A DNA stretch of 64,000 nt from Oligoflexia bacterium (GTDB taxonomy: Bacteria; Bdellovibrionota; UBA1018), in NCBI GenBank assembly GCA_014376785.1, contig JACMQW010000018.1, positions 9,536-73,535 of the forward strand, given 5' to 3'. Under the pieces are notes generated by a model. That model did no database searches, was not told the origin of the DNA, and saw only the letters and a program-made list of their open reading frames with translations. Numbering within the stretch: position 1 is the first letter of the stretch; each line of letters begins with the position of its first letter. Both the position numbers and the translations under genes were made by a program. Shown in pieces: positions 1,426-28,744 of the stretch.

Positions 1426-2340
1426 ATGAAACCTGCGAACCTCGCGGAAGCGATTGCACATTATTTAGAAGTGCTTGAAATTCAAAGGAAATTGGCGAAT
1501 CACACGTTGCGCGCCTACCGGTCTGATTTGTCAGAATGGCAATGTGTGATGGAAGAAGCAGGCTTCGGCACGGTGGACGATTTGGACGCCGGACTGAAGC
1601 CCCAACACATTCGGAGCTATCTGGCGCGGAAGACGGAGTCGCACGAACGCAGTTCGCTCTGCAGAAAACTGTCCGTCGTTCGCGGCTTTCTGAAATTCGG
1701 GCGGAATGAAAAATGGCTCACGCGGAATATCGGCGCTCTCGTTCCTTCTCCGAAACAGAATCGATCGTTGCCGGAGTTTCTAAAAATAGAAGAGGTCTCG
1801 GAACTCATCGGCGCACCCGATGTCTCCACTCAGCTCGGCCGCCGCGACAAGGCGATTTTTGAACTCATTTATGGAGCGGGTCTTCGGGTGAGTGAGGCGG
1901 TGGGTTTGGATGTCGGGGGAGTCAATTTCTCGAGTGGTTGGGTGAGTGTTCTTGGAAAAGGGTCGAAAGAGAGAAACGTTCCGATCGGAACGTCCGCCAT
2001 TCGCGCATTGGAAGCGATGCTCAGCGACCGCGAGGGTAAGACGCACGAACCACTGTTTGTAAACTACCGAGGAACGCGCCTCACCTCCCGTAGCGTGGCT
2101 CGTATTCTCGCAAAACATTTGATTCGCATCGCAGCTAGTCGATCGATTTCCCCACATGGTTTGCGTCATAGTTTTGCGACCCACTTGCTCATGGCAGGTG
2201 CAGATTTGCGAGGAATTCAGCAGCTACTGGGCCATGCCCAGCTTTCTACGACCCAGCGCTACACGCACATCGACCTCGGAACTCTGGTCGACGAATACCG
2301 AGGAGCTCATCCCCTTGAGAAAAAGACTCCTGTTCGGTAA
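1426..2340 (+). CDS. xerC: Tyrosine site-specific recombinase XerC/XerD family
   Basis: 304 aa. The C-terminal catalytic motifs are HGLRHSFATHLL and LLGHAQLSTTQRYTHI (R-H-R-Y integrase signature). The N-terminal SAM-like domain contains TLRAYRSDL. A gid(trmFO)-xerC(codV) adjacency is known in other bacteria. Confidence 0.75.
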   Translation: MKPANLAEAIAHYLEVLEIQRKLANHTLRAYRSDLSEWQCVMEEAGFGTVDDLDAGLKPQHIRSYLARKTESHERSSLCRKLSVVRGFLKFGRNEKWLTRNIGALVPSPKQNRSLPEFLKIEEVSELIGAPDVSTQLGRRDKAIFELIYGAGLRVSEAVGLDVGGVNFSSGWVSVLGKGSKERNVPIGTSAIRALEAMLSDREGKTHEPLFVNYRGTRLTSRSVARILAKHLIRIAASRSISPHGLRHSFATHLLMAGADLRGIQQLLGHAQLSTTQRYTHIDLGTLVDEYRGAHPLEKKTPVR

Positions 2341-2354
2341 CCTCGCAAAACCCC

Positions 2355-2984
2355 ATGGATCTATTGGTCGACTTCCTTCTGAACTTCTACGGTCCGACGC
2401 CTTATCTTTTGGTATTCGGAATTCTTCTGCTTTGCGGATTCGGAGTTCCTATTCCGGAAGACGTTGCGCTTTTCGCAGCCGGCTTGCTTGCGTATTACGG
2501 AGTGGTCGATCTTTGGGTGATGATCGCCGTAGGATTTGCAGGGGTTATGGCGGGTGATTCGATCATGTGGTATCTGGGCCACAAATACGGTCGTCGCCTG
2601 ATGAAAAAGTCATTTTTCCAAAAGCTCTTACCCGAAGAGCGTATCCAAATGGCATCGACGCGTCTGAATCGAAAGGGCGCAAAGCGACTGCTGTTCGCAG
2701 GTCGGTTCATGCCCGGGCTTCGCGCCCCTATTTATTTCACATCTGGTTTCTTGCACGTCCCGTTCTGGCGTTTTTTTATTATGGACGGCCTCGCGGCGAT
2801 GGTCAGTGTGCCGCTCATTATCGGCGCGGTCTTTCACTTCGGAGATGAACTCGACGTCGTGGTTCGGTGGATCAAAAAAATTGAACACGGAATTCTTTTC
2901 ATTATTTTCGGAGTTGCCGTCGTAGTAGGAACGAAATGGTGGCTGACTCACCGTCGAGCGCGCGCTGGAAACATTATCCCATGA
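2355..2984 (+). CDS. DedA/SNARE-associated family inner membrane protein
   Basis: 209 aa, polytopic. It carries the DedA signature GFGVPIPEDVALFAAGLLAYYG and GRFMPGLRAPIYFTSG. Confidence 0.75.
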   Translation: MDLLVDFLLNFYGPTPYLLVFGILLLCGFGVPIPEDVALFAAGLLAYYGVVDLWVMIAVGFAGVMAGDSIMWYLGHKYGRRLMKKSFFQKLLPEERIQMASTRLNRKGAKRLLFAGRFMPGLRAPIYFTSGFLHVPFWRFFIMDGLAAMVSVPLIIGAVFHFGDELDVVVRWIKKIEHGILFIIFGVAVVVGTKWWLTHRRARAGNIIP

Positions 2985-3943
2985 GAACCGCTTTCGTTCT
3001 CTTTGCGGGTTTCTCCTTGTTCGCTTGTTCTCCCCGCGCGGCAAACGTGCCGGAATCGAATGGCGTCCCACTTCCTCGCGCATCGGCCACCCCCCAGGTT
3101 CAGGAAGTCACCAGCGCATCTGCTTACGAAATCACGCAACTGTGCAAATCGCTGCAATCAGGAATCGAAAAGTATCAGTGGCGCGGTTTAAAAACCTGCG
3201 AAGGCATCCATTGGAAATCAGAAAGTCTTTCTGAAGAAGGCCGTCCGTTGATTTATGCCGAGTTCGGCCAACCATCGAGTTTGAATAAGACCCTAATCCT
3301 CTCCATGGTCCATCCGGACGAAATCACTCCTCTCTACCTCGGGTTTAAAATTGCGCATTACATTCGCGAGCGAGAGCTCGATTTAAAGGATGCCCACGTC
3401 ATCATCGCGCCGTTGGTAAATCCAGACGGATTTTTCAAACACCCACCCACTCGCATGAATGCCCGCGGCGTGGATGTGAATCGTAATTTCGATACGCCAC
3501 TGTGGCGGGAAAAAGCGCTGAAAGAATGGACGACCCGATTAGGAAAAAATCCCCGGCGCTTTCCCGGCCAGGAGCCGGCATCTGAGTCGGAAACTAAATT
3601 CCAAGTAGAGCTGATCGAACGATTCAAGCCAGCGAAAATTCTTTCGATCCATGCGCCACTGAATGTCACGGACTACGACGGACCCAATAGCCTCACGCTG
3701 GATCGCTTTCCGAAAGAATACGTTCACGCGTGTTATCAGCTCCGAAGTCGACTCCGCGCGAAGTCGACCGGGTATTTTCCAGGGTCGCTCGGAAATTTCG
3801 CCGGCATCGAGCAGGGGATACCCACGATTACTTTGGAGCTTCCATCAGCAAATCCCAAGCTCGCGGATGGTTTCTGGAAAAAGTTTCAGCCAGGAATACA
3901 CTCGATGATCCAATTTAAATTCGACCCTAGCGCGAAGAAATAG
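2981..3943 (+). CDS. Secreted M14-family zinc carboxypeptidase/amidase-like protein (MpaA/AstE-like)
   Basis: The ATG at 2981 overlaps the dedA stop (ATGA). The N-terminus MRTAFVLFAGFSLFACS has a signal and lipobox-like shape. Motifs are HPDE (HxxE zinc ligands) and DVNRNF (M14 substrate-binding Arg motif). Confidence 0.6.
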   Translation: MRTAFVLFAGFSLFACSPRAANVPESNGVPLPRASATPQVQEVTSASAYEITQLCKSLQSGIEKYQWRGLKTCEGIHWKSESLSEEGRPLIYAEFGQPSSLNKTLILSMVHPDEITPLYLGFKIAHYIRERELDLKDAHVIIAPLVNPDGFFKHPPTRMNARGVDVNRNFDTPLWREKALKEWTTRLGKNPRRFPGQEPASESETKFQVELIERFKPAKILSIHAPLNVTDYDGPNSLTLDRFPKEYVHACYQLRSRLRAKSTGYFPGSLGNFAGIEQGIPTITLELPSANPKLADGFWKKFQPGIHSMIQFKFDPSAKK

Positions 3944-4667
3944 CCGAAGGGGTTTCTAAAGCTTTTCGAGCTTCCGTGAGGAGATACACTCCAGACGTGA
4001 CAGCCAGTGCGGCCGCGACCCAAATCGCGATTCCGGCAGAGAATCGCTTACGGGGCGGGGGCGTAACTTCCGGTGCGTCGGTCCTAAACGGTACGGATTC
4101 GTGCTCATTTGCTCGCAAGAGAAAAGCGGGGGGAGTGCGAGGTGGTTCCGCGAGGGCCTGGTTTACTCCGAGCGTCCATCCATCGAGAGAGGAAGCGGCA
4201 GTTTCACTCAGCTTTGCCTGGATCATGCGTTCGTTCGGAGCCGGGGGGGCGTGCTGGTCTGTCGGATAGGCCGGGGCTACATTCTGAAATTCGGGAGGCT
4301 GCCTTTTTTCCACGTCAGACCGCGATGACCTGGCGGCTAACTCCAAAGTCGCATGAGCGATCGCGGCCTCATTTTTTAACCGCGCTTCATTCGATGCGGC
4401 TTCTGCGAGTGCGAGTTCGCGAGCAGAACGGTCCTGAGCTTTTTTCCATTCGGCTTCGCGAGTTTTCAATTCTCGCTGCGCCAGTTCTGCTTCGAGCTGA
4501 GCTTCATCTTCGAGTCGGCGTGCTTTCACATACCCGGCAAGCGCGGCGCTGCGATGGATGAGGGCCATCCCTTTGCATTTTCCGCAACGGACGTAAGCAC
4601 GCTGAATATTTTCAAAATCAATTCCAGCGGTGACAAGCGATTCACAGTGAGGGCAGTTCCAACGCAT
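3927..4667 (-). CDS. Zinc-ribbon (MJ0042-type CPxC...CxxC) coiled-coil protein with C-terminal TM helix
   Basis: The N-terminus reads CPHCESLV...VRCGKCKG. This is followed by a charged coiled-coil stretch (EAQLEAELAQRELKTREAEWKK) and a C-terminal hydrophobic segment AGIAIWVAAALAVTSGVYLL. Confidence 0.5.
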   Translation of the reverse strand: MRWNCPHCESLVTAGIDFENIQRAYVRCGKCKGMALIHRSAALAGYVKARRLEDEAQLEAELAQRELKTREAEWKKAQDRSARELALAEAASNEARLKNEAAIAHATLELAARSSRSDVEKRQPPEFQNVAPAYPTDQHAPPAPNERMIQAKLSETAASSLDGWTLGVNQALAEPPRTPPAFLLRANEHESVPFRTDAPEVTPPPRKRFSAGIAIWVAAALAVTSGVYLLTEARKALETPSAISSR

Positions 4668-4744
4668 GGATTTTCTCCGGTCTCATTCTCTAGACTATCG
4701 CCATTAAGCCAAAAAATAACTGGGTAAGTGTTGCCGATTCCGCA

Positions 4745-5608
4745 TTAGGCCGCCTGCAATTCGACAGTAGGTAATTTTTTCACCTTGGCTAATTGTTCCA
4801 GTCGTAAAATTCTCTCACTCACGAGGGGATGCGCCTTACTGCCGGTGCTTCGTTCGATGGCGGCCTGAAGCGTGGTGAGTGCTTCTAAAAGAGAGGTGGC
4901 TTTGATTTGAAAAATTTTCATCGCTGTTTCATCGGCTTCAAATTCTTGGTCCCAGAGGAGCTGCCGCATGGTCATCCAAGTGAGTAAGGCAGGAATGATT
5001 CCCGCAACGAGTGAGAATGCGCCACCCAGATTTGCGTAACCACTCCAGTGCATTCCAATCAGCGTCGCCGCAGTCAGAACGGACGCGACAATAAAAGTAC
5101 CAATGGCCCGGAGCATGCGTTTTAAAAGGTGGTTTTGATTCAGATGGGAAAGCTCATGAGCAAAAACCGCTTCCAGAGCGGACGGGGCGAGTAGTTTTAA
5201 CGCGCCTTCCGAAGCGAAGATAACGGGGCGAAAAATTCCGCGTCCGAATGAAAATCCGGAGACGAAGACGTTCGGCAGCTTACCCGGTAAATCGGAGTCT
5301 GCGGCTGCGTAAAGCGATACTCCGTTCCATTCTCCGATGGCGCGGGCGAAAAACGCATGACGAAGCGTGAATGGACTGACCAGCAGGCTGAGGAAAACGC
5401 CGCCTGAAAATCCGCCTAGAATTCCCACCAAGACGAAGGCGAGTTTGAACGCGGGGAATACCGCTGGAAGCCTTCCCGCAAAGGTAACCCCGAGGGCTGC
5501 ACCCGCCGCGAGACCTGCGCTGGTAAGCAAGATCATGCTTCCGAAGAGGAGGACATTGCTCCATTGATTTCTTAAACGCCGAATAAAAGCTTGTTGAGTT
5601 GCATCCAT
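4745..5608 (-). CDS. M48 family zinc metalloprotease (HtpX-like), membrane-bound
   Basis: HELSHLNQNH is an HEXXH motif and a downstream EFEADE supplies the third ligand. Several TM helices are present. The start is placed at MDATQQ (5606-5608) because the longer ORF would overlap divergent meaB. Confidence 0.7.
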   Translation of the reverse strand: MDATQQAFIRRLRNQWSNVLLFGSMILLTSAGLAAGAALGVTFAGRLPAVFPAFKLAFVLVGILGGFSGGVFLSLLVSPFTLRHAFFARAIGEWNGVSLYAAADSDLPGKLPNVFVSGFSFGRGIFRPVIFASEGALKLLAPSALEAVFAHELSHLNQNHLLKRMLRAIGTFIVASVLTAATLIGMHWSGYANLGGAFSLVAGIIPALLTWMTMRQLLWDQEFEADETAMKIFQIKATSLLEALTTLQAAIERSTGSKAHPLVSERILRLEQLAKVKKLPTVELQAA

Positions 5609-5688
5609 GCTTTTTTCTATTCGGTGCGAAACGATGCGAGCGAGAGGGTAGAGATTGCCGACCCTTCGCCTTGTGATACGAAAGATCC

Positions 5689-6645
5689 ATGACTGCTCCG
5701 AATTACGCACGGGTCGAGGCTTTGATCACTGATATGCGCGCCGGCAAAAGATTGGCGCTGGCGAGGCTCATCTCTAAAGTTGAGAACCGGGATCCGGATC
5801 TCCATGAAGTGATGAGAAGAATCTATGCCCTTTCGGGCAAGGCTCAGATCTGGGGAATCACCGGTCCTCCCGGCGCCGGAAAGTCCACGATGGTCGATCA
5901 GTTTGCCATCGAGTTGAGGAAAAGAGGAAAGCGAGTCGCAATCGTCGCGGTCGATCCTTCTTCTCCCTTTACGGGGGGAGCGATCCTCGGGGATCGCATC
6001 CGGATGCAGAGGCATACCCACGACGAGGGCGTCTTCATTCGCTCACTCGGAACTCGCGGAAAGCATGGCGGCTTATCCCATGCGACGAAGGAAGTGGTGC
6101 TGCTTCTCGACTCCGCGGGATTCGATGTGATTTTGGTGGAAACGGCGGGGGTCGGCCAGACGGAGCTAGATGTCTTGAAGCTCGCTCAAACCGTCGTGGT
6201 GGCTCTCGTTCCCGAAAGTGGTGACTCGATCCAAGTTATGAAAGCCGGTCTCATGGAGATCGCAGACATCTTTGCCGTAAATAAGAGTGATCGACCTGAG
6301 GCGGATAAACTCGTGAAGGAGATCATCACGATGGTCGGACTGAACGACCACGATGAGAAAAGCTGGATGGTTCCGGTTAAGAAGACGGAAGCCACGCGCG
6401 GGGTCGGTATGGTCGAACTCCTGGATTCGATCGGGGAGCATCAAGCCTGGCTCGGCAAAACGGGAAATCGAGATGAAAAAGGTCGCCGGTTTCTGAAAGA
6501 AGAAGTTCTCGACATCTTAGTAGAGCGATTAGAGCGAAGTTTAGACGGTGCATTTGAGACACGTTCTGGAAAAGAGCTGCTCGAGCAGCTTTTGCGACGG
6601 GAAATTGACCCTTACTCGGCGGCGGATACCCTTTCCGGTCAGTGA
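5689..6645 (+). CDS. meaB: Methylmalonyl-CoA mutase-associated GTPase MeaB / ArgK (LAO/AO transport system ATPase)
   Basis: P-loop GITGPPGAGKST, VETAGVGQTE and NKSD G4 motifs are present. 318 aa. Confidence 0.85.
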   Translation: MTAPNYARVEALITDMRAGKRLALARLISKVENRDPDLHEVMRRIYALSGKAQIWGITGPPGAGKSTMVDQFAIELRKRGKRVAIVAVDPSSPFTGGAILGDRIRMQRHTHDEGVFIRSLGTRGKHGGLSHATKEVVLLLDSAGFDVILVETAGVGQTELDVLKLAQTVVVALVPESGDSIQVMKAGLMEIADIFAVNKSDRPEADKLVKEIITMVGLNDHDEKSWMVPVKKTEATRGVGMVELLDSIGEHQAWLGKTGNRDEKGRRFLKEEVLDILVERLERSLDGAFETRSGKELLEQLLRREIDPYSAADTLSGQ

Positions 6646-6827
6646 AGCTGCGAATTTCTGAAAATAATGGACTGAAATAGTTTTTTAAAAACGAATTTGG
6701 ACCAATAAAGAAGGCTCTCAGCTTTTTTAAAAAATTTCTTGAAGGTGTAAAAAGCGAAGAATATCGAGCAACTAATGCAGAGCGCATTTTAGATGCAGCG
6801 CATTTTAAATACCTGACTAAATTTATC

Positions 6828-6854
6828 TAAAGGTTCCACTATACCCGACCGAAA
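6828..6854 (+). promoter_or_regulatory. Candidate sigma-28 (FliA) promoter upstream of fliC copy 1
   Basis: TAAAGGTT-N11-GACCGAAA compares with the consensus TAAAGTTT-N11-GCCGATAA. It lies about 205 nt upstream of the ATG, so assignment is tentative. Confidence 0.3.
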
Positions 6855-7059
6855 TGCTCTTTGACGGAAAGATCATTGTGGAAATGGTTTCACAGAGGCT
6901 CTCGGTCAAGCAGGGGTACAGCATATTCCTGCAAAAAATCTAAGGTGCGATTCTTCCGGGGGTAGCTCACGGGGGGGATGGAGTGGTCCATCTTCTGCCG
7001 GGTTGCCAAGGGGAGAGCACGGCCTTTAGCAGTACGTATCAAGCAAAAGGGTGTGGTGT

Positions 7060-7893
7060 ATGGGTCTTCGTATTAATACTAATATTCAGTCGTTAGCAGC
7101 TCAGCGTTCTTTAGGGATTAACTCCGGCGCACAAAAAGCAAGCTTAGAGCATTTGTCTTCCGGTTCCCGGATTGTTAGAGCTGCAGACGATGCCGCTGGA
7201 CTCGCGATCTCTGAAAAAATGAAGTCGCACATTCGTTCTTTAAACCAGGACATGCGCAACGCAAACGACGGGATCTCGATGATCCAAACGGCAGAAGGTG
7301 CGATGAACGAAACAGGGAACATCCTGACTCGTTTCCGCGAACTTTCCATCCAAGCTTCTTCGGACACCATCGGTGATACCGAACGGGGATTCATCAACAA
7401 AGAAGTGAAGCAACTCGGTTCTGAAATTGACCGGATTGCAAAATCGACCGAATACAACGGACGCAAGCTTCTCGCTGGAGAAGGCGATAAGCTTGAAATC
7501 CAAGTAGGTCTGAAAAACAACAAAGAGCTCGATCGTTTCCAATACGACGTCGCGGCAACGAACACCACGGCAGATGCTCTCGGTGTGGGTGGCCTTTCCG
7601 TCAACACGAAAGAAGAAGCGCAAAACAACCTCGATAAAATCGACGGAGCGATCTCGAAACTCTCTGGAAACCGCGCTGAAATGGGCGCACTTCAGAACCG
7701 GTTGCAATCTTCGATCTCTAACATGGCCGTCTACAATGAAAACTTGTCAGCCGGTAACAGCCGAATCCGCGATGTGGATATGGCTTCTGAAACTGCGGAG
7801 TTGACTAAAAACAACATCCTCACTCAAGCAACGACTTCAGTCCTCAGTCAAGCGAACCAGAACTCGATGCTGGCATTGAAACTCCTTGGATAA
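7060..7893 (+). CDS. fliC: Flagellin (copy 1)
   Basis: MGLRINTNIQSLAAQR...AADDAAGLAISEKM is the N-terminal D0/D1 segment, and LSQANQNSMLALKLLG is the C-terminal D0. AAGGG lies 8 nt upstream of the ATG at 7060. The track start at 7051 is a GTG. Confidence 0.9.
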   Translation: MGLRINTNIQSLAAQRSLGINSGAQKASLEHLSSGSRIVRAADDAAGLAISEKMKSHIRSLNQDMRNANDGISMIQTAEGAMNETGNILTRFRELSIQASSDTIGDTERGFINKEVKQLGSEIDRIAKSTEYNGRKLLAGEGDKLEIQVGLKNNKELDRFQYDVAATNTTADALGVGGLSVNTKEEAQNNLDKIDGAISKLSGNRAEMGALQNRLQSSISNMAVYNENLSAGNSRIRDVDMASETAELTKNNILTQATTSVLSQANQNSMLALKLLG

Positions 7894-7976
7894 TCTCCAT
7901 TGAGTTCTTGTTAGTACCGAATCGCTTAGACAGCGAGGTCCCTCATTCGGTTGATCCGTGAGGAATGTATCCACCT

Positions 7977-8014
7977 GGAAGGGTTGGATGGGTTAATCCC
8001 ATCCAACCCTTTCC
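7977..8014 (+). terminator. Perfect 16-bp hairpin downstream of fliC1
   Basis: GGAAGGGTTGGATGGG-TTAATC-CCCATCCAACCCTTCC is followed by TCGTTTGT, a weak U-tract. It sits in a convergent intergenic region. Confidence 0.45.
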
Positions 8015-8266
8015 TCGTTTGTGGAGGTAAAGAAAAACTCTGGGGAGGGCTCTAACGGACTCCTTCAGTCACTTCCTGTGACTGACAGTCCTTTAGGACT
8101 GGCGAACCTTCTCGGGCATCATGCCCTCGAAGTATCCTGCGCCTTTTCGCGCATCGTGCGCGGCGGCGGTCGCACCCGAAGGATTTTTAAATGTTTCTCT
8201 AGAAACGAGGAACGTCCGGTGGCGTTGGGGACGGGGTGCGACTCATGACTCGCGTTTCCGCTCGTC

Positions 8267-9154
8267 TCAAGGACAGTGTAAAAATCCCTGAACGTTTTCC
8301 AAAATTATCGAACAGCCTCTCAAAAACTTCATACCTAACATTCCTTCGGCAGGCATGTCCTGAGAAGTCGGCTGAAGCCTCACATCCATTTTAAACTTTC
8401 TTCCCAGTAGCGTTGTTTCTATTTGAGTGAGTAAGCGAACTGACGATGGCTTCCCTGAAATGCCTCCAACTTTCTCGTGGGAGGTAATGGACTTGTTGAG
8501 AAGTTTTTTTCCCGCTCGCGACTGATTCCCAATCGCCGCATTGTCTGCACCTGAATCAACGAGGAATCTCACCGGCAGGTTGGCGATCTTTCCATCCACA
8601 ACGTAAAGGATCGTGTGGGTAACCTCGGGACTGATGGAGTGAATAGAAGTGAGTGGCGTGTAATCCTTTAGTGATGCGTGGGAAATGTCGCTGATGATTA
8701 ACGAAGGAACTTTCCCGAGATTGAGAGTGGCTGCCCCGCTTTTGGTGATCAGACTCTGGGGCGATAAGATTCCAGAAATGCCATAAACGCGGAATGAGCT
8801 AGGCAGGGAGGTGATCCAGACCTCCTTATTCTTGTAAACGAGAGTTTCGCCATTCGACGATTTCAGGGCCAGGTCGATCTTGGCCAGTGGGGCCTGGTCA
8901 TTAGCTCCGGTAGTGGCGGCCATCGTATTTTGAACGATATTGGATTCCGCCGCGAACCAGCTCGCGACAACGCTAAGCGAAGCTCCAGTGTCTACAAGGA
9001 AGATTCCCTTTTTGCCGTTGACGATAATTTCTACTGTCGGAGAGGCAAAACCTGCCTGATCGAGCAATGGATCAAAACTTAGCGCAAACTCAGATGCCCA
9101 AGCAGACGTACAACACAGGGTGAGGATAATACCGAATGGAAGAGTTGAGTCCAT
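8267..9154 (-). CDS. Secreted pepsin/retropepsin-like aspartic protease (two-lobed)
   Basis: Signal peptide MDSTLPFGIILTLCCTSAWA. Two catalytic motifs, FLVDTGASLS and FLVDSGADNA, are present. 295 aa. Confidence 0.6.
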   Translation of the reverse strand: MDSTLPFGIILTLCCTSAWASEFALSFDPLLDQAGFASPTVEIIVNGKKGIFLVDTGASLSVVASWFAAESNIVQNTMAATTGANDQAPLAKIDLALKSSNGETLVYKNKEVWITSLPSSFRVYGISGILSPQSLITKSGAATLNLGKVPSLIISDISHASLKDYTPLTSIHSISPEVTHTILYVVDGKIANLPVRFLVDSGADNAAIGNQSRAGKKLLNKSITSHEKVGGISGKPSSVRLLTQIETTLLGRKFKMDVRLQPTSQDMPAEGMLGMKFLRGCSIILENVQGFLHCP

Positions 9155-9217
9155 AGCGCCGGAGTAGCAGAGAATCTAATCTCCGTCAGCGATTAATCAT
9201 CCGAATGTTTCAGGTCC

Positions 9218-9843
9218 TTACGCCGGCAGAGTCATGATCAACGGATGCCCATCGGTAATGACCATCGTGTGTTCGTACTGTGCGGTGAGGTGACGTTTAT
9301 GCTTGGCAAGCGTCCAGCCACCGCCCGTATCGAAAACTTCTCGAGCTCCAGTGAAGAGAAAAGGTTCGATCGTGATGACCTGGTTCTTCTTCAGAACGCG
9401 TCGATCTTTCGGGTCGTAGTAACTCGGAATAAAACCAGGCGCTTCGTGCAGGGCTCTGCCCACTCCGTGGCTTCCGAGATTCTCGATCACGGTAAGCCGC
9501 TTCGGCGAGCTTCGGATTCGATGGCTCGACCGATTCCGCTGAGTAATGTTCCCGCGCGTGCTTCTTTCATCGCTAGCTTCAGCGCTCGCTGAGTCGCCAG
9601 GCAGAGGTTCTTTTTCAAATCAGATTCCGGTGGAATGACAAAAGACCCGCCGGTATCGGTAGCCGAGCGAGCCCCATAAAGTTCAAGAAACTTTTCGCCG
9701 ATCTGATCCAGCTCTCAAGTCGTCATCCCTGGTTCCAGCGATTTACCCATCAGCCGAAGGCAATTCGCAACGATGCGGCCGATTTTCTGAGGTGCGATTA
9801 AATCTTCTTCGGTCTCGATTGAAATGGAAAGACTGTAGCACAT
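9218..9843 (-). pseudogene. map: Methionine aminopeptidase type I (map) disrupted by an in-frame TGA and a frameshift
   Basis: From the ATG at 9841-9843 the gene reads MCYSLSISIETEEDLIAPQKIGRIVANCLRLMGKSLEPGMTT, then TGA at 9715-9717, then ELDQIGEKFLELYGARSATDTGGSF...ARRSG. The frame then shifts near 9491-9505 into LTVIENLGSHGVGRALHEAP...TMVITDGHPLIMT. The TGA sits where MAP has the Gly of PGVTTGELD, consistent with a GGA to TGA change. Confidence 0.7.
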
Positions 9844-9953
9844 TGCGCGAGCTGACGCTTCCCCTTCGGGCCACGACCGCGATTCGCGCGAGACCAACCA
9901 CTTTAAATCGGACACTGATTCGGACACTGATGCTTGATCGAAGTATGATCCGA

Positions 9954-10080
9954 AGATTTAAGCCCTCTAAAATTGAGCGGCGAGAGTGAGTGGGGAAGGC
10001 GCAGGATGCGCTCTTCTAAGGGCCCCGCGGCAGGATGCCGATCGAACCTCTCGCCGCTCAATTTTAGAGGGCTTAAATCT
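9954..10080. repeat. 121-bp element with perfect 33-bp terminal inverted repeats (MITE-like or long-stem RNA structure)
   Basis: Left arm 9954-9986 is AGATTTAAGCCCTCTAAAATTGAGCGGCGAGAG. Right arm 10048-10080 is its exact reverse complement. The 61-bp spacer holds two mini-palindromes, GCGCAGGATGCGC and GGCAGGATGCC. A partial extra arm copy, CGGCCGCCGCTCAAGCTC, lies at 10090-10107. Confidence 0.6.
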
Positions 10081-10185
10081 CTGTACAATCGGCCGCCGCT
10101 CAAGCTCAACCCACGGAATTGAATTTAGTTTATCAACGAATTCAATGACTTGAAATCAATTGTTAAGCTTTATTCTTTTTATTAT

Positions 10186-10208
10186 GCAAAGCGTCAAAAT
10201 CCCGATAA
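10186..10208 (+). promoter_or_regulatory. Sigma-28-like -10 element (CCGATAA) upstream of fliC copy 2; the -35 match is poor
   Basis: CCCGATAA at 10201-10208 matches 7 of 8 positions of GCCGATAA. The upstream TAAA spacing does not fit. ACTATACCC at 10293-10301 is shared with the fliC1 upstream region (6838-6846). Confidence 0.2.
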
Positions 10209-10343
10209 GGTCTATGTAAGCCAAAGGAATCGAGCAATCGAGGCCAGAGGCAAACAACTACCTTGGAGGCTGTCCCGGGTAGAACAAACATACGAACCTC
10301 GGACTATACCCACCAGTAGCACGTCCGGCCGGGAGAACGTATC

Positions 10344-11171
10344 ATGGGCTTAAGAATTTCGACCAATATTGCGGCTATGTCTGCGGCGCGAGCACTTTCC
10401 TCATCCTCAAACGAACAAGCAAAGAGTTATCAACGACTCGCTTCGGGTAACCGAATCACGTCTGCCGGCGACGACGCCGCTGGATTGTCGATCAGTGAAA
10501 AACTGAAATCACAAATCCGTTCCCTCGGACAAGCCGAAAGGAACGCGAATGACGGAGTGTCCTTCACGCAAGTCGCAGAAGGCGGCTTGAATGAAATCGG
10601 TAACATGCTCGTCCGGATCCGTGAACTCGGAATCCAAGCCGCATCCGATACGATCGGGGACACGGAACGTGGATTCGTGGATAAAGAAGTGCAGCAACTG
10701 AAGGGTGAAATTAATCGGATCGCAAACGTCACCACCTTTAACGGCACTCCGTTATTAAATGGTGAAGGCAAAAAGGATCTGAGCTTTCAGGTCGGCGCTT
10801 CCAAGGCGGACGCCATCGCGTTCAATCCAGAGAATTACAACGCGAGAACCGATAAACTGGGGATCGACGGAATCGACTACACGAGTTCGAGCGGTGCCCG
10901 AGATTCACTCGATAAAGTTGATGACGCGATTTCGAAAGTTTCTGGCTCACGGGCTGATCTCGGGGCTCAACAAAACAAGCTGCAAGCAACCATTTCGAAC
11001 TTAGCCATCCAAAAGGAGAATTATTCGGCCGCGAACAGTCGGATTCGGGATACCGATGTCGCTTCGGAATCCTCGAAACTAGTCAGCGGAAATATTCTGC
11101 AGCAAGCCGGCGTGTCCGTCTTGAGTCAGGCGAACATGGCTCCGCAGGCGGCCCTTAAGCTTCTGGGATAA
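10344..11171 (+). CDS. fliC: Flagellin (copy 2)
   Basis: MGLRISTNIAAMSAARALSSSS...GDDAAGLSISEKLKSQIRSLGQAERNANDG is the N-terminal segment and LSQANMAPQAALKLLG is the C-terminus. GGGAGAA RBS. It is paralogous to 7060-7893. Confidence 0.9.
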   Translation: MGLRISTNIAAMSAARALSSSSNEQAKSYQRLASGNRITSAGDDAAGLSISEKLKSQIRSLGQAERNANDGVSFTQVAEGGLNEIGNMLVRIRELGIQAASDTIGDTERGFVDKEVQQLKGEINRIANVTTFNGTPLLNGEGKKDLSFQVGASKADAIAFNPENYNARTDKLGIDGIDYTSSSGARDSLDKVDDAISKVSGSRADLGAQQNKLQATISNLAIQKENYSAANSRIRDTDVASESSKLVSGNILQQAGVSVLSQANMAPQAALKLLG

Positions 11172-18194: not shown

Positions 18195-18356
18195 AGCGGA
18201 GAACTTGATCATCCCTCCCGGACCGCGTATTCGAAGGGAAACACATTCTGAGTCGAAGGAAGTGGGTGAAAATCCCACACTGTCCCGCAACGGTGATGAG
18301 ACGACGCTCTCTCAGTCCGGTCTACGACAAAGAATTCATCCCGAGGAGGAATCGCT

Positions 18357-18869
18357 ATGACCACTGAGAGAGAAGTAGAGCCCGAGCCGAAATTAGAACC
18401 GATCCCTTCCGAGCCGCTCCGGATGGTGGAGATGGTTTTTCCAAATAACACGAATCATTACGGAACGCTTTTCGGAGGAAAAGTACTCGATCTGATGGAC
18501 CGAGCAGCATTTCTCGCGGCTACCCGATTTGCCCACCAGACGATGGTCACTGCCAGCACCGAGCACATTGATTTTTTCACGCCCGTGAAAAGTGGCCAAA
18601 TCGTGGAACTCGTCGCAAAGGTCGTTTTTACCGGTAAGACTTCACTTACCGTAAAGGTCGACCTTTTTTCGGAAGACGCCATCCGAAAAACCAGAGTGCA
18701 TGCGAGCCAGGGTTACTTTCACATGGTTGCCGTGAACGAAGAAGGCAAGCCAGTAAGAGTTCCAGAACTCACTCTCGAAAATGAGCATGACCGAGCCGAG
18801 TGGCAGGAAGTGAAAGCACTCCGGGAATTTAGAAAATCACGCACTCTCAAAAAAGGAAAATCGATATGA
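18357..18869 (+). CDS. Acyl-CoA thioesterase (hotdog fold, YciA-like)
   Basis: MVEMVFPNNTNHYGTLFGGKVLDLMDRAAFLAA matches the acyl-CoA hydrolase family. Confidence 0.8.
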   Translation: MTTEREVEPEPKLEPIPSEPLRMVEMVFPNNTNHYGTLFGGKVLDLMDRAAFLAATRFAHQTMVTASTEHIDFFTPVKSGQIVELVAKVVFTGKTSLTVKVDLFSEDAIRKTRVHASQGYFHMVAVNEEGKPVRVPELTLENEHDRAEWQEVKALREFRKSRTLKKGKSI

Positions 18870-24678: not shown

Positions 24679-25965
24679 ATGAAAATGAAGTCCCAAATTT
24701 GCTTTGGAATCATTCTGAATTCCGTCGCTTTTCCATTTTTATCCTGGGCATCCGACCCATTAAGAATCCAATCGCCAGAGGTAGGGGATTGCGCAATGAT
24801 AGCCGGGCCCGCTAATCTGCTCCAGCAGCCGGATGGAAAAATTTTTAAGTCCCTGCCGGACTCTAATCGATTCAGAATCGTAAAACAGGAAAGTCCCTGG
24901 ATTAAAATTGAATCCAGAACGAACGACAATGCCCATTTTTGCTCTAACGATGATCAGGAAACGGATGGACCCGAAGAATCAATCAGTGGTTGGATTCATG
25001 CAAAAAGTATTAAGAAGCTGACAACCAGCCAGCTATTCAAAGAGTTTCCCCGAGCTCTCAGCTTACGTCTTGAACGGGACTTGAGAAGCTCAGAGCCGAT
25101 GTGGACTGCTGTAGTGGACAAAAAGGAATGCGAATGTTTCCGCAGTTCTTCAAGCTATGGGCCGAGTTCAGAATCCTCGAATAAGGTTTACACTCGTTCG
25201 ACGAAATTGAGCGGGCTTTGCAAAAGCACCACAGATTTTGTTTTCTGTCAGGACACTCACCTGCTTCCGGCACAAGTCTGGGCTTCTACTCTTTGTCCAA
25301 GAGCTTGCCTCAAATTGAGCGATGCTCCGTTGCTCGCACTCGAGAAAAAAATTCAGCGACTAGAACTTTTAAGTCGATCAGCAAGAGGAGATTACAAATT
25401 AAAAGTATCGCCATTTACTTGGAAAACTCTCGAGCGAGAGTATCCGAATTGGCTGGCCGCGAATTACACGACTTTTGGATATTCGCTAAATGAGAAGCTT
25501 CAACGTGCGATGTATGATCGGATATTTGACCTGGAACTGGCGACATTTTTTCATCGGGGAGAGATTAGCTTCCGGGGCAAAAAGCGAAATGTTGAGATCG
25601 TAATTTTTTTTGAGACGACGAAAGATTTCATCGCAGAGAACCCCAGTTGGATCGCGACAGATGTTGGGTCTAGCGAGTTACTTTGGAAAGAAAAATTGCA
25701 TCTGGAATCAAGAGGTTTCATGAAGGGAAAAGCCCCTCAGTTCTGTATCTTTCCCGAGACGAAAAGTTCTGAACACCCTGACTTCCTAGTCTACGTTCAG
25801 AACCAGATGGGCGACGGATGGTCGGATTTAGGACTGATCACCACGGATGCGGTAGGTAAAATTCAGAATGTTGACAAGAGTACTGCAGAGGACAAGCTAC
25901 TCAGCGGTTCTTTGGGGAATTGGATTCATTTGATCGATCAATGTAAGCTTTTTGTTACTCAGTAG
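24679..25965 (+). CDS. Secreted hypothetical protein
   Basis: ATG at 24679 (MKMKSQICFGIILNSVAFPFLSWA, signal peptide). 429 aa, Cys-rich, with no recognisable catalytic motif. Confidence 0.5.
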   Translation: MKMKSQICFGIILNSVAFPFLSWASDPLRIQSPEVGDCAMIAGPANLLQQPDGKIFKSLPDSNRFRIVKQESPWIKIESRTNDNAHFCSNDDQETDGPEESISGWIHAKSIKKLTTSQLFKEFPRALSLRLERDLRSSEPMWTAVVDKKECECFRSSSSYGPSSESSNKVYTRSTKLSGLCKSTTDFVFCQDTHLLPAQVWASTLCPRACLKLSDAPLLALEKKIQRLELLSRSARGDYKLKVSPFTWKTLEREYPNWLAANYTTFGYSLNEKLQRAMYDRIFDLELATFFHRGEISFRGKKRNVEIVIFFETTKDFIAENPSWIATDVGSSELLWKEKLHLESRGFMKGKAPQFCIFPETKSSEHPDFLVYVQNQMGDGWSDLGLITTDAVGKIQNVDKSTAEDKLLSGSLGNWIHLIDQCKLFVTQ

Positions 25966-26013
25966 AATTTGACCGGTATTTCGATTGCTCCCCGATCCTC
26001 TGATCTTGCCTTT

Positions 26014-26226
26014 TTAACCGCGTTTCTTCATTCGGCCCCAAATGGAGAGGAGACAGAGGAGCGTCCCCATCGCTGCGGGCTTTAAAGCGATCAGGGATTC
26101 AAAGCTGAAAACAAACGAAAGAATGTAAACCAAGACCGCCATCCCAAGGAAAGTGAGTCCCAGGTAGACGAGTCGTGGGTCGTCGAGTGTTCGAATCTTT
26201 TTCATAGATCGCCAGATGTTTCTCAA
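26014..26226 (-). CDS. Small two-TM membrane protein (hypothetical)
   Basis: 70 aa with two hydrophobic segments. No homology recognised. Confidence 0.3.
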   Translation of the reverse strand: MRNIWRSMKKIRTLDDPRLVYLGLTFLGMAVLVYILSFVFSFESLIALKPAAMGTLLCLLSIWGRMKKRG

Positions 26227-26341
26227 AGTTGGAGCCCGGGATTGGCCATCACTCCCTCAAACCTGCGCGCCCTACCGTGCCAGATCCCGGTCAAAAAATC
26301 GCGTCCAGTCCCGCGCAAGACTTCGCTCATCCATCGTCCCG

Positions 26342-26443
26342 CTTTCAAAAGCCTAAAAAAGAGTTCCGCAGCGACCGAGCAGTTGACCGCAGAGAACCAT
26401 TCCCGAACGCGAGGACTATTTGATTTTTTAGGCTTTTGAAAGG
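26342..26443. repeat. Inverted-repeat element (20-bp arms, 62-bp spacer) immediately 3' of tRNA-Leu
   Basis: Left arm 26342-26361 is GCTTTCAAAAGCCTAAAAAA (with an outer G/C mismatch) and right arm 26424-26443 is TTTTTTAGGCTTTTGAAAGG. The architecture parallels the 9954-10080 element. Confidence 0.5.
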
Positions 26444-26464
26444 GGGATGATGGATGAAGGAAAA

Positions 26465-26549
26465 TGGTGCCCGGGACTGGACTCGAACCAGCATGCTGTT
26501 AGGCGCTCGCCCCTGAAACGAGTGTGTCTACCAATTCCACCACCCGGGC
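26465..26549 (-). tRNA. tRNA-Leu (anticodon CAG), class II with long variable arm, CCA encoded
   Basis: The reverse complement is GCCCGGG-TG-GTGGAATTGGTAGACAC-A-CTCGT-TTCAGGG-GCGAG-CGCCTAACAGCAT-GCTGGTTCGAGTCCAGT-CCCGGGC-A-CCA. It has a perfect 7-bp acceptor stem, the anticodon loop has U33 with anticodon CAG and G37, and a TTCGA T-loop. Confidence 0.85.
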
Positions 26550-26621
26550 ACATCAGAGAGTTCCCGTGTTAACGAATTCAGCGGGCCTCTGTCAACTGGC
26601 TTGTGGACCGGCATCCTACCC

Positions 26622-27149
26622 TTAATTGGCTATCAGGAGCGACGAAATGCTCTTCTTACAGGTCGAGGGAAGGATGAAAGAGGTCCCGACGGGGGCCAGG
26701 GAATTTGCCGTGGTGCCGTAATTGAAAAGTTCCACGGTGTTCATGCTGGGGTGCACGCTGGCGACTAAGATGCGTCCGTCATCCATTACGGTGAGCGCTG
26801 AAATGCCCGCCACCACACTCGGGTCGTTATAGACATGAACTCCGTTCGTGATCGCGGTCGCTGACACGTCGTAACTGTAGATCGAATGAACCGGGACAAT
26901 ACTATTTGAGTAAGCCACGAAGAGTTTTCCCGACGAGTGCAGAAGCATGGCCGTCGGGAAAGGGTTCACCGTCGGAGTGGAAATGGCATTCACACAATCA
27001 GTGCTAACGGAGTAACCCGTCTTTTTTACGATTCCGATTCGATTCTGGGCGGCGGCGGCGTGGGCAAAAAGAATGTCTCGATTCGCTTTCTGGCTAATAG
27101 CGGAACTAAGCGTCGTCGATGTCGCGCAAGGTCCTGCGGGTGCATTCAC
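26622..27149 (-). pseudogene. Fragment of a YVTN/lactonase-type beta-propeller repeat protein, with no proper start
   Basis: Repeat-like segments are GKLFVAYSNSIVPVHSIYSYDV and DGRILVASVHPSMNTVELFNYGT. The ORF begins at an internal GTG right after an in-frame TAG. It is only 175 aa and sits between the tRNA and the IS remnant. Confidence 0.4.
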
Positions 27150-27628
27150 CCATGGAGTCGTTGCCCCGATCGAAGTCCGGTTGCGGGCGCTGTTAAATTT
27201 TTCGATGAAGGTCTATCGACTGACAAGCCGCTCTCCTACTTCCCGCTGCATTCTCCAAGAGCACTAAAAGGTGATCGTGGTCATAAGGAATAACCTTTAC
27301 CGGCTGATCGCCCGGCGAGGTGTTGAAGTCCTAAATGGTTCGATCGAAAGCGCCGTTCAAGGCGTGGCGGACGATGGTGTTTCTCGCGCTAAGAGGAGTC
27401 TCTCCGTTCCCAGCGCGATTAACTTAACAGGTGCAAACCAAAGCTAAGTTTTTGAACTCATGAAAGGTTTCCCCATGACGAGTTCGCGTTAGAATCTCAG
27501 TATTATTTCTCTCTTATCTCCCGAAGCATTTCCATAAAAAACACCTGCTTCGCTCGAATAAAAAAACGAATACATCGCGCAATCGAAAGTTCGATCCCAA
27601 GGTTTTCTTTCACACGCTGATCGTCTTA

Positions 27629-28397
27629 GTGGGCGGGGAAAATCACGAAGGTTACTCACATGCGCTGATGAAAGTATGGAGCGGAAAACGCAGATTAGAA
27701 AATGCGCCCGCCCGAAGCTCCCTCGCTCGTCTCCGAAAATGGATCTCCTACCTCTTCTTCAAAGATCATTTCGAGAAACTCGTAAAGAAAGCGGACGCTG
27801 TTAGATCGACCTATTTAGGGCTTCGAATCTACGCCATCGACGGGCAGATGTTGACGCTTCCCAAATCAAAAGAAATCACGCAGGCGGGCTTCACGGGCGT
27901 GAGCAAGGATCTGAGATTTACGAACCGAGCGCGAGAGCCTGGTGATTTACGACCGACTGTACTTTGGAGTGAGGCTCGTGAAGGCGCACTACCGCCGCGG
28001 TAATCACTTTTTATTTCGCCTGAAAAAGAACGCGAATAGGGAGATTGCGGCGTTCTTTCAAGACCCGGCCCGGCCGACGACCGCCACGTTTATGCTCGGA
28101 GAAAAGTTTGAGGTGAATCTCGTACGCATCTTTGACGCGAAAAACAGAAGGCACGACGTCTTCGCAACGAGCTTGCCGATCGATTTCTTGAAGCCGCATT
28201 TAATTGCGAAACTCTACCGGCTCCGCTGGGAAGTGGAGACCTCGTTTCTAGAGCTCACGGGCATCACGAAGGCAGAACAGTGGCATTCGAAATCCGTGAA
28301 CGGCATCCTGCAGGAGCTCTACGCGAAGTTTTGGCTCATTAACTACACGAAGCTTCAGATTCACGCTCAGACCCAGAAACCGAGGGGTTCTATATGA
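27629..28397 (+). mobile_element. IS4-family transposase remnant (frameshifted, 5'-truncated)
   Basis: Two overlapping ORFs lie in different frames (27629-28003 and 27942-28397). The second carries the IS4 signature LYRLRWEVETSFLELTG. Combined they give ~255 aa against ~400 aa for an intact transposase. Confidence 0.65.
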
Positions 28398-28744
28398 ATT
28401 CGATTGCTTACGAAAAAGGTCACTGGAGAGGAGGAAGCATCGATCACGACGCTACAAACGAGAGATTAAGAAACCGCTAAGTCCTTATCCTTACAACAAT
28501 TGCAAATGGGTTTGGGACGCTTAAGGCAACGGCATTACACGAAGAGTGCGCATTTTCTCTGGTCAGGTGTCTAAATTTTTTACAGTTTGTGCAAATTGTC
28601 CTATGACTCGAAACTTTGTAAGATCTTGTAATCACGATCTAATTTATCCGCTGAGAAAATTGACTGTGCGCGGCACGGTCTTGGCATTAGCCCGCCCGGG
28701 TATCTTAAAGATCCCGTGACGAAAAGATGCCCCCGGAGAAATTT

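What the first reader, a model, noticed from the sequence alone, without database searches (positions are those of the whole stretch)
9218..9843. Methionine aminopeptidase gene carries both a nonsense codon at a conserved Gly and a frameshift
Map is normally essential. Here the reading frame is MCYSLSISIETEEDLIAPQKIGRIVANCLRLMGKSLEPGMTT, then TGA at 9715-9717, then ELDQIGEKF..., then a +/-1 shift near 9491-9505 before the conserved LTVIENLGSHGVGRALHEAP...TMVITDGHPL. The TGA replaces the Gly of the conserved PGVTTGELD segment, as a GGA to TGA change would. Two independent lesions in 600 bp argue for a real pseudogene and against a single sequencing slip. That implies a second functional map copy elsewhere, or ongoing gene decay in this flagellin-flanked stretch.
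Basis: partly seen in the sequence, partly recalled or inferred. Interest (0 to 1): 0.55.

Follow-up and report, generated by a model that had tools for sequence, protein, structure and literature searches.

The report
Dead methionine aminopeptidase gene copy
This is an ordinary, thoroughly broken leftover copy of a housekeeping enzyme gene (methionine aminopeptidase), lying in a small piece of DNA inserted between two flagellin genes of a Bdellovibrio-like bacterium, so the working copy must lie elsewhere in the genome.

Summary
The stop codon (TGA, 9717-9715) and the 1-base frameshift (between 9494 and 9493) are both real. The family's ATG start is now ATT (9825-9823). A 141-nt in-frame deletion (junction 9662/9661) removes 47 residues, including the equivalents of E. 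coli His79 and the metal ligand Asp97. Repairing the two reported lesions therefore cannot restore a 250-aa enzyme.

The TGA does not sit at a conserved Gly. Among the 120 closest homologues that position is Arg in 70 and Gly in 3, so CGA>TGA is the likeliest change.

The surviving residues differ from the family at 7 of 113 near-invariant positions. Intact homologues differ at 0.94 on average (maximum 4). The copy has drifted without selection. TGA is the commonest genuine stop in the window, so recoding is excluded.

The parent family is the 249-aa, S. aureus-type, stand-alone type I MetAP of Bdellovibrionota.

In syntenic relatives the two flagellin genes are directly adjacent. The remnant and an intact secreted aspartyl-protease gene therefore lie in a ~2.1-kb insertion edged by inverted repeats.

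Verdict: genuine, ordinary pseudogene, low interest. Whether an intact map exists elsewhere could not be tested.

The parts
9218..9843 (-). Methionine aminopeptidase (type I, S. aureus/YflG-like) pseudogene. Homology to intact 249-aa relatives runs from about 9842 to the stop at 9220-9218.
9823..9825 (-). Lesion 1: the family's start codon ATG is ATT here (Met1>Ile). An in-frame ATG lies 18 nt upstream at 9843-9841.
   Evidence: all four relatives have ATG TCx ATT GAx; the window has ATT TCA ATC GAG
9715..9717 (-). Lesion 2: in-frame TGA at family codon 37. This position is variable, and Arg is the commonest residue in close relatives. The likeliest change is CGA>TGA.
9661..9662 (-). Lesion 3: junction of a 141-nt (47-codon) in-frame deletion. 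It removes PKLTYNFPGTTCISVNEEAAHGIPG..DLVNIDVSAELDGYF, including the equivalents of E. coli His79 and the metal ligand Asp97.
   Evidence: (32 near-invariant columns lost)
9493..9494 (-). Lesion 4: 1-nt deletion in the Leu codon of ...RR(S/N)xLTVIEN... It shifts the frame and gives TGA at 9489-9487.
8267..9154 (-). Intact co-oriented neighbour 63 nt downstream of the remnant. It is a 295-aa protein with an N-terminal hydrophobic leader and two retropepsin-like aspartyl-protease domains. It is part of the same inserted segment.
9954..10080 (.). 127-nt element with perfect 33-nt inverted-repeat arms (9954-9986 and 10048-10080) at the right edge of the inserted segment. It is unique in the window and absent from all fetched loci.
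   Evidence: (z = -11.9)
8011..8212 (.). Left edge of the inserted segment: a degenerate inverted repeat (arms 8011-8026 and 8197-8212, 88%). In the near-identical strain L087 the arms are 38 nt long and 97% complementary.
7051..7893 (+). Flagellin gene 1, intact. A terminator-like hairpin follows at 7977-8013.
10344..11171 (+). Flagellin gene 2, intact. Its upstream promoter and leader region, about 10161-10343, is conserved with relatives. This sets the right limit of the insertion.

Best explanation
Window 9218-9843 (minus strand) is a non-functional remnant of a type I methionine aminopeptidase gene. The parent is the 249-aa stand-alone, S. aureus/YflG-like family that is widespread in Bdellovibrionota.

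Shown: four independent disabling lesions.
- Loss of the start codon (ATG>ATT).
- A nonsense TGA at family codon 37.
- A 141-nt deletion that removes one of the five metal ligands and a catalytic His.
- A 1-nt deletion.
Amino-acid changes at otherwise near-invariant positions have also accumulated, as expected for neutral drift after inactivation.

Shown: the remnant sits with an intact secreted aspartyl-protease gene in a ~2.1-kb segment (about 8014-10160) bordered by inverted-repeat elements. The segment interrupts a flagellin-flagellin tandem that is uninterrupted in syntenic relatives.

Inferred: the MAP copy arrived at, or was moved to, this place as part of that segment. It was redundant with a working MAP elsewhere in the genome, so it decayed without cost. 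It makes no active enzyme.
For: - Lesions at protein and nucleotide level.
- Catalytic residues: His79 and Asp97 equivalents fall in the deletion; D108, H171, H178, E204 and E235 equivalents remain.
- Even when conceptually repaired, the protein scores 145 bits against TIGR00500, below the 171.35 cut-off.
- Relaxed constraint: 7 of 113 deviations at columns at least 95% conserved, against a mean of 0.94 (sd 1.06, max 4) in 120 homologues.
- Relative-rate counts: 12-20 unique changes on the window lineage against 4-9 on intact sisters, p mostly 0.005-0.2.
- Standard genetic code: TGA ends 22 of 47 long ORFs in the window.
- Family identity: 4624 homologues, the best being 249-aa Bdellovibrionia/Oligoflexia MAPs. 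357 hits in species genomes, one per assembly among the 80 kept. The closest solved structure is S. aureus MetAP 1qxw, E=5e-66.
- Insertion: in L091, L094 and L095 the order is MeaB - fliC - fliC, with only 320-605 nt between the flagellin genes and no protease or MAP. The fliC2 promoter and leader are conserved from about 10161.
- None of 86 MAP loci has flagellin or this protease nearby.
Against: - No independent read-level or second-assembly check of the remnant was possible. The two near-identical Logan contigs from SRR9661224 stop at 9223 and start at 10051, leaving the remnant uncovered. That run may be the data the window itself was assembled from.
- The source looks like a metagenome-assembled genome (protease identical to NCBI MBC7385074.1), so some assembly error cannot be formally excluded.
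- A working MAP elsewhere in the genome was not observed; only 64 kb is available.
- The direction of the event (insertion here rather than loss in relatives) rests on parsimony over two relative clades.
- Relative-rate p-values are modest.
Confidence: 0.85

Rival explanations
1. The gene is intact in the organism, and the lesions are sequencing or assembly artefacts of a metagenome-assembled contig.
For: The source appears to be a MAG. The region is bordered by inverted repeats that break k=31 assemblies. No independent coverage of 9224-10050 was found.
Against: - Four lesions of four different kinds would have to coincide within 610 nt: a substitution in the start codon, a substitution creating a stop, a 141-nt deletion and a 1-nt deletion outside any homopolymer run.
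- Artefacts do not explain the 7 replacements at near-invariant residues or the 2-3-fold excess of lineage-specific changes.
- Flanking genes are clean and 99.8-100% identical to the second assembly.
Confidence: 0.03
2. The gene is expressed through recoding. TGA would be read as an amino acid (code 4 or 25, or selenocysteine) and a programmed frameshift would occur at 9494, giving a functional protein.
For: In more distant family members the TGA column is Gly in 18 of 74 loci, and UGA=Gly exists in genetic code 25 (general knowledge).
Against: - TGA is the commonest terminator of long ORFs in this window, 22 of 47.
- G+C is 51%.
- The shift site GGC-TTA-CCG-TGA has no slippery heptamer (the judgement that no slippery site is present is mine).
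- Rfam finds nothing at 7800-10500.
- Even a fully read-through product lacks 47 residues, including a metal ligand and a catalytic His.
Confidence: 0.01
3. This is not an extra copy in an insertion. It is the lineage's own single S. aureus-type map gene, relocated by rearrangement and decaying in place because a different kind of MAP paralogue has taken over.
For: - The family is single-copy per assembly among the 80 loci kept.
- Its genomic context differs between relatives, so relocation is common.
- Bacteria with two MAP types are known, for example B. subtilis MapA/YflG (general knowledge).
Against: - No second MAP type could be shown for Bdellovibrionota.
- In the parts of two B. bacteriovorus gene tables that are held (both cut short), only one gene per strain is called map: Bd0649 in HD100 and Bdt0616 in Tiberius (PMC3627812, PMC3539863).
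- infA (Bd0321) is also stand-alone there (PMC3539863).
- These points suggest this family is the main MAP, so losing it would require another copy of the same family.
Confidence: 0.2

Closest known systems
Type I methionine aminopeptidase, S. aureus MetAP (PDB 1qxw/1qxy/1qxz) and B. subtilis YflG-like subgroup; MEROPS M24A, Pfam PF00557, TIGR00500
   Same: Clear homology over all surviving parts. Four of the five metal ligands and His178 are retained in sequence. Length and domain order of the intact relatives (249 aa) match S. aureus MetAP (252 aa).
   Different: No intact ORF. The start codon is lost, and there is a premature stop and a frameshift. 47 residues are deleted, including the Asp97 and His79 equivalents. 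It is a derivative of the family, not a functional member.
Unitary or duplicated bacterial pseudogenes of redundant housekeeping paralogues
   Same: Multiple independent disabling mutations plus relaxed amino-acid constraint. Neighbouring genes are intact. The location is a non-conserved inserted segment.
   Different: Nothing unusual. The only slightly uncommon feature is the position inside a flagellin tandem and the inverted-repeat borders of the segment.
B. bacteriovorus HD100 Bd0649 (map) and Tiberius Bdt0616
   Same: Annotated stand-alone methionine aminopeptidase (759 nt) flanked by unrelated genes (PMC3627812 and PMC3539863 supplements). This matches the stand-alone habit of the family seen.
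   Different: Those genes are annotated as intact.

Membership tests
Functional type I methionine aminopeptidase (M24A / TIGR00500) | Significant match to the Peptidase_M24 pita-bread domain | tested here: met
   PF00557 E=6.3e-20, but only profile positions 90-208 of 208 in the best stretch. TIGR00500 E=2.8e-42.
Functional type I methionine aminopeptidase (M24A / TIGR00500) | Score at or above the curated equivalog cut-off | tested here: not met
   Even with the stop and frameshift conceptually repaired, the score is 145 bits against a cut-off of 171.35.
Functional type I methionine aminopeptidase (M24A / TIGR00500) | All five metal ligands (E. coli D97, D108, H171, E204, E235) plus His79 and His178 | tested here: not met
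   The D97 and H79 equivalents lie in the 47-aa deletion. The other five are present (residue roles from general knowledge of E. coli MetAP).
Functional type I methionine aminopeptidase (M24A / TIGR00500) | One uninterrupted ORF of about 250 codons with a start codon | tested here: not met
   ATG>ATT, in-frame TGA, 1-nt deletion, 141-nt deletion. The longest ORF pieces are 70, 43 and 90 aa.
Pseudogene | Homology to a family that is intact in relatives | tested here: met
   86% identity to P0001 over aligned columns. Relatives are uniformly 249 aa.
Pseudogene | Disabling mutations that cannot be read through under the organism's genetic code | tested here: met
Pseudogene | Relaxed selective constraint on the surviving sequence | tested here: met
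   7 of 113 deviations against a mean of 0.94 and a maximum of 4. Relative-rate excess. Synonymous sites are too saturated (about 77% nt identity) for a useful dN/dS.
Pseudogene | Lesions present in the organism (reads or an independent assembly), and an intact functional copy elsewhere | not testable with these tools
   Near-identical contigs stop on both sides of the remnant. The source genome was not retrievable.
Mobile element / MITE-bordered cassette (considered for the ~2.1-kb segment) | Terminal inverted repeats matching each other, target-site duplication, multiple copies, or a transposase/integrase | tested here: not met
   The two border elements are each internally palindromic but unrelated to one another. 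I saw no target-site duplication. There are no other copies in the window or in 1.6 Mb of fetched loci, and no recombinase gene nearby.

The most novel reading that the evidence does not exclude
The ~2.1-kb segment between the flagellin genes could be a previously undescribed small insertion cassette that targets flagellin tandems. It consists of a left inverted-repeat element, a near-orphan secreted tandem-retropepsin protease gene, the MAP remnant and a 127-nt element with perfect inverted-repeat arms. On this reading the MAP fragment is a passenger picked up from a donor genome.
Probability: 0.07. Interest if true: 0.35.

Novelty: already known. Interest (0 to 1): 0.1.

Why it matters
It matters little biologically. 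It is a dead copy of a housekeeping gene, of a kind found in most bacterial genomes.

Practical value:
- Annotators should flag it as a pseudogene with four lesions, not two. It should not be counted as the organism's map gene in completeness or essential-gene checks.
- It marks a recent ~2.1-kb insertion into a flagellin tandem, which may interest anyone studying flagellin locus evolution in Bdellovibrio-like predators.

Tried and rejected
- Exact-protein look-ups of window products to find the source or an independent assembly. Five found nothing: the protease, flagellin 2, the 90-aa and 70-aa MAP fragments and the 115-aa antisense ORF. Two others succeeded (P0121 and the TGase-like protein), but their contigs stop at 9223 and start at 10051, so the remnant is not covered.
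- A genome-contig scan with the protease found no relatives.
- A metagenome scan with an exact 32-mer from the remnant found no hits.
- I looked for a second MAP in the window and found none.
- I looked for a second MAP type in Bdellovibrio through supplementary gene tables of three papers. The tables were absent or cut before the ribosomal-protein region, so the result is inconclusive.
- TGA recoding and programmed frameshifting were rejected.
- A base-composition anomaly of the insert was checked and none was found: GC 0.47-0.55, like the flanks.
- Other copies of the inverted-repeat elements were sought and none found.
- The protease homologue contigs L088 and L089 were checked for an adjacent MAP. 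The upstream fragment there is not MAP.
- dN/dS was not attempted, because synonymous sites are saturated at about 77% nucleotide identity.

Full report
**What is there.** On the minus strand the region reads MCYSLSISIETEEDLIAPQKIGRIVANCLRLMGKSLEPGMTT, then TGA (9717-9715). It continues ELDQIGEKFLELYGARSATDTGGSFVIPPESDLKKNLCLATQRALKLAMKEARAGTLLSGIGRAIESEARRSGLP and stops. One frame over it resumes as LTVIENLGSHGVGRALHEAPGF...AQYEHTMVITDGHPLIMTLPA, with its stop at 9220-9218. The mechanical ORF list shows only fragments of 70, 43 and 90 aa. A conceptually joined translation matches Pfam Peptidase_M24 (E=6e-20) and the type I MetAP equivalog TIGR00500 (E=3e-42). Its 145 bits are below the 171.35-bit cut-off.

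**The parent family.** A search of 5.8 billion proteins returned 4624 homologues. The best 120 are almost all exactly 249 aa. Where they carry a name, they are type I methionyl aminopeptidases from Bdellovibrionia, Bdellovibrionales or Oligoflexia MAGs and Bdellovibrio isolates. A scan of species genomes confirmed 357 relatives, and the 80 kept loci came from 80 different assemblies. The closest solved structure is S. aureus MetAP (1qxw, E=5e-66), ahead of E. coli MetAP. In four different relatives the gene is stand-alone and sits in four different neighbourhoods, none of them a ribosomal-protein cluster.

**The lesions.** Protein and nucleotide alignments with intact relatives show four lesions, not two.
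- The family's start codon ATG is ATT at 9825-9823.
- TGA at 9717-9715.
- A 141-nt in-frame deletion with its junction between 9662 and 9661. It removes 47 residues (PKLTYNFPGTTCISVNEEAAHGIPG..DLVNIDVSAELDGYF).
- One base is missing from a Leu codon between 9494 and 9493.

An alignment with E. coli MetAP places the equivalents of His79 and the metal ligand Asp97 inside the deletion. D108, H171, H178, E204 and E235 remain (residue roles are established knowledge of E. coli MetAP).

**The 'conserved Gly'.** Among the 120 closest homologues the TGA column reads R70, L25, Q9, F5, K3, A3, G3, H1, W1. Across 74 more diverse genomic loci, Gly, Arg, Leu and Ala are about equally common. Relative L004 has ACT CGA GAA where the window has ACT TGA GAG. 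A CGA>TGA transition is the most economical origin. GGA>TGA is possible but not favoured.

**Real decay or artefact?** At the 113 surviving alignment columns that are at least 95% conserved among the 120 homologues, the window differs at 7: M1I, L12P, A56T, I63V, S158F, D169G and T175K. The homologues differ at 0.94 on average (sd 1.06, max 4). In three-taxon comparisons the window lineage carries 12-20 unique amino-acid changes against 4-9 for its intact sisters, with p mostly between 0.005 and 0.2. Four lesions of different kinds, none in a homopolymer run, plus this drift are not what assembly errors produce.

TGA terminates 22 of 47 long ORFs in the window. Rfam finds nothing in the region. 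The shift site has no slippery sequence. Recoding is therefore excluded, and a read-through product would in any case lack catalytic residues.

**Independent coverage.** A direct read-level check was not possible. Two Logan contigs from SRR9661224 are 99.8-100% identical to the window. One ends at 9223 and the other starts at 10051, so they stop on either side of the remnant. The second break falls exactly inside a 33-nt inverted-repeat arm, as expected for a k=31 graph.

**Context.** The remnant lies between two intact flagellin genes (7051-7893 and 10344-11171). It is 63 nt upstream of, and co-oriented with, an intact 295-aa gene. That gene encodes an N-terminal hydrophobic leader and two retropepsin-like aspartyl-protease domains. 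In the closest syntenic metagenome contigs the order is MeaB - flagellin - flagellin. This holds for L091 (flagellin orthologues 86% and 75% identical) and for L094 and L095 (68% and 67%). Only 320-605 nt separate their two flagellin genes, with no protease and no MAP. The promoter and leader region of flagellin 2 is conserved from about 10161, and the flagellin 1 terminator hairpin ends at 8013.

The stretch from about 8014 to about 10160 is therefore most simply an insertion in this lineage. Its right edge carries a 127-nt element with perfect 33-nt inverted arms (9954-9986 and 10048-10080). Its left edge carries a second, unrelated inverted repeat (8011-8212). That repeat is 38 nt long and 97% complementary in the sister strain but degenerate in the window. 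Base composition does not differ from the flanks. None of 86 MAP loci from relatives has flagellin or this protease nearby.

**Interpretation.** A MAP copy came to lie in a small inserted segment, was redundant, and decayed. The protease gene beside it stayed intact. MAP is essential in bacteria (established knowledge), so a working copy must lie outside this 64-kb window, which holds no other MAP.

Whether that copy belongs to the same family or is a different MAP type could not be determined. The held parts of two B. bacteriovorus gene tables list a single stand-alone 'map' per strain: Bd0649 in HD100 and Bdt0616 in Tiberius. They also list a stand-alone infA, Bd0321. Both tables are cut short (PMC3627812, PMC3539863).

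**Source.** The protease is identical to NCBI MBC7385074.1, labelled 'Cryobacterium sp.' in the MAG record and 'Oligoflexia bacterium' in nr, on a 104-kb contig. The window therefore probably comes from a Bdellovibrionota/Oligoflexia MAG whose bin label is doubtful.

**Verdict.** This is a genuine but ordinary pseudogene, more degraded than reported. It has low interest and belongs to a known kind.

Noticed in passing
window 9954-10080: A 127-nt element with perfect 33-nt inverted-repeat arms and a 61-nt spacer (RNA fold -83.6 kcal/mol, z = -11.9). It lies between the MAP remnant and the flagellin 2 promoter. It has no other copy in the window or in 1.6 Mb of fetched loci and no Rfam match. 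It breaks the k=31 Logan assembly exactly at its right arm.
   Followed up: partly
window 8011-8212; L087 1012-1211: A second, unrelated inverted repeat lies just after the flagellin 1 terminator. It is 38 nt long and 97% complementary in the near-identical strain L087 but only 16 nt and 88% in the window. Sixteen of the 17 differences between L087 and window 1850-9223 fall in 8174-8217, which is the inner arm. The other difference is at 8497, in the protease gene.
   Followed up: partly
window 8267-9154 (-): A 295-aa protein with a hydrophobic N-terminal leader and two retropepsin-like aspartyl-protease domains (a pepsin-like tandem). It is nearly an orphan: apart from its own cluster, only one homologue cluster (42% identity) turned up among 5.8 billion proteins.
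   Followed up: partly
L075 735-1494 (uncultured Pseudobdellovibrionaceae MAG contig CAZYOE010000279.1): Another member of the same MAP family is split over three reading frames (two frameshifts). It is either a second independent pseudogene or an assembly error in a low-coverage MAG.
   Followed up: no
P0126 (JGI contig of 7392 nt, member of the P0010 cluster): A 90-aa 'methionyl aminopeptidase' starts at the same VIENLGSHGVG position as the window's C-terminal ORF but has a different sequence. This hints that another genome also has a MAP gene disrupted upstream of this point.
   Followed up: no
window 9908-9931: A perfect tandem duplication of a 12-mer (TCGGACACTGAT x2) lies about 65 nt upstream of the remnant's ATG.
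   Followed up: no
window 18245-18335 (+): An AdoCbl (cobalamin) riboswitch (Rfam RF01482, 50.7 bits against a gathering score of 50) lies just upstream of the ORF at 18357-18869.
   Followed up: no
window 26465-26549 (-) and 25965-28727: tRNA-Leu(CAG) lies within a ~2.7-kb stretch that has only short ORFs. This is the largest low-coding gap in the window.
   Followed up: no
source record: The window's protease is identical to NCBI MBC7385074.1, which the MAG record labels Cryobacterium sp. (an actinobacterium) but nr labels Oligoflexia bacterium. All homology found here points to Bdellovibrionota, so the bin label looks wrong.
   Followed up: partly
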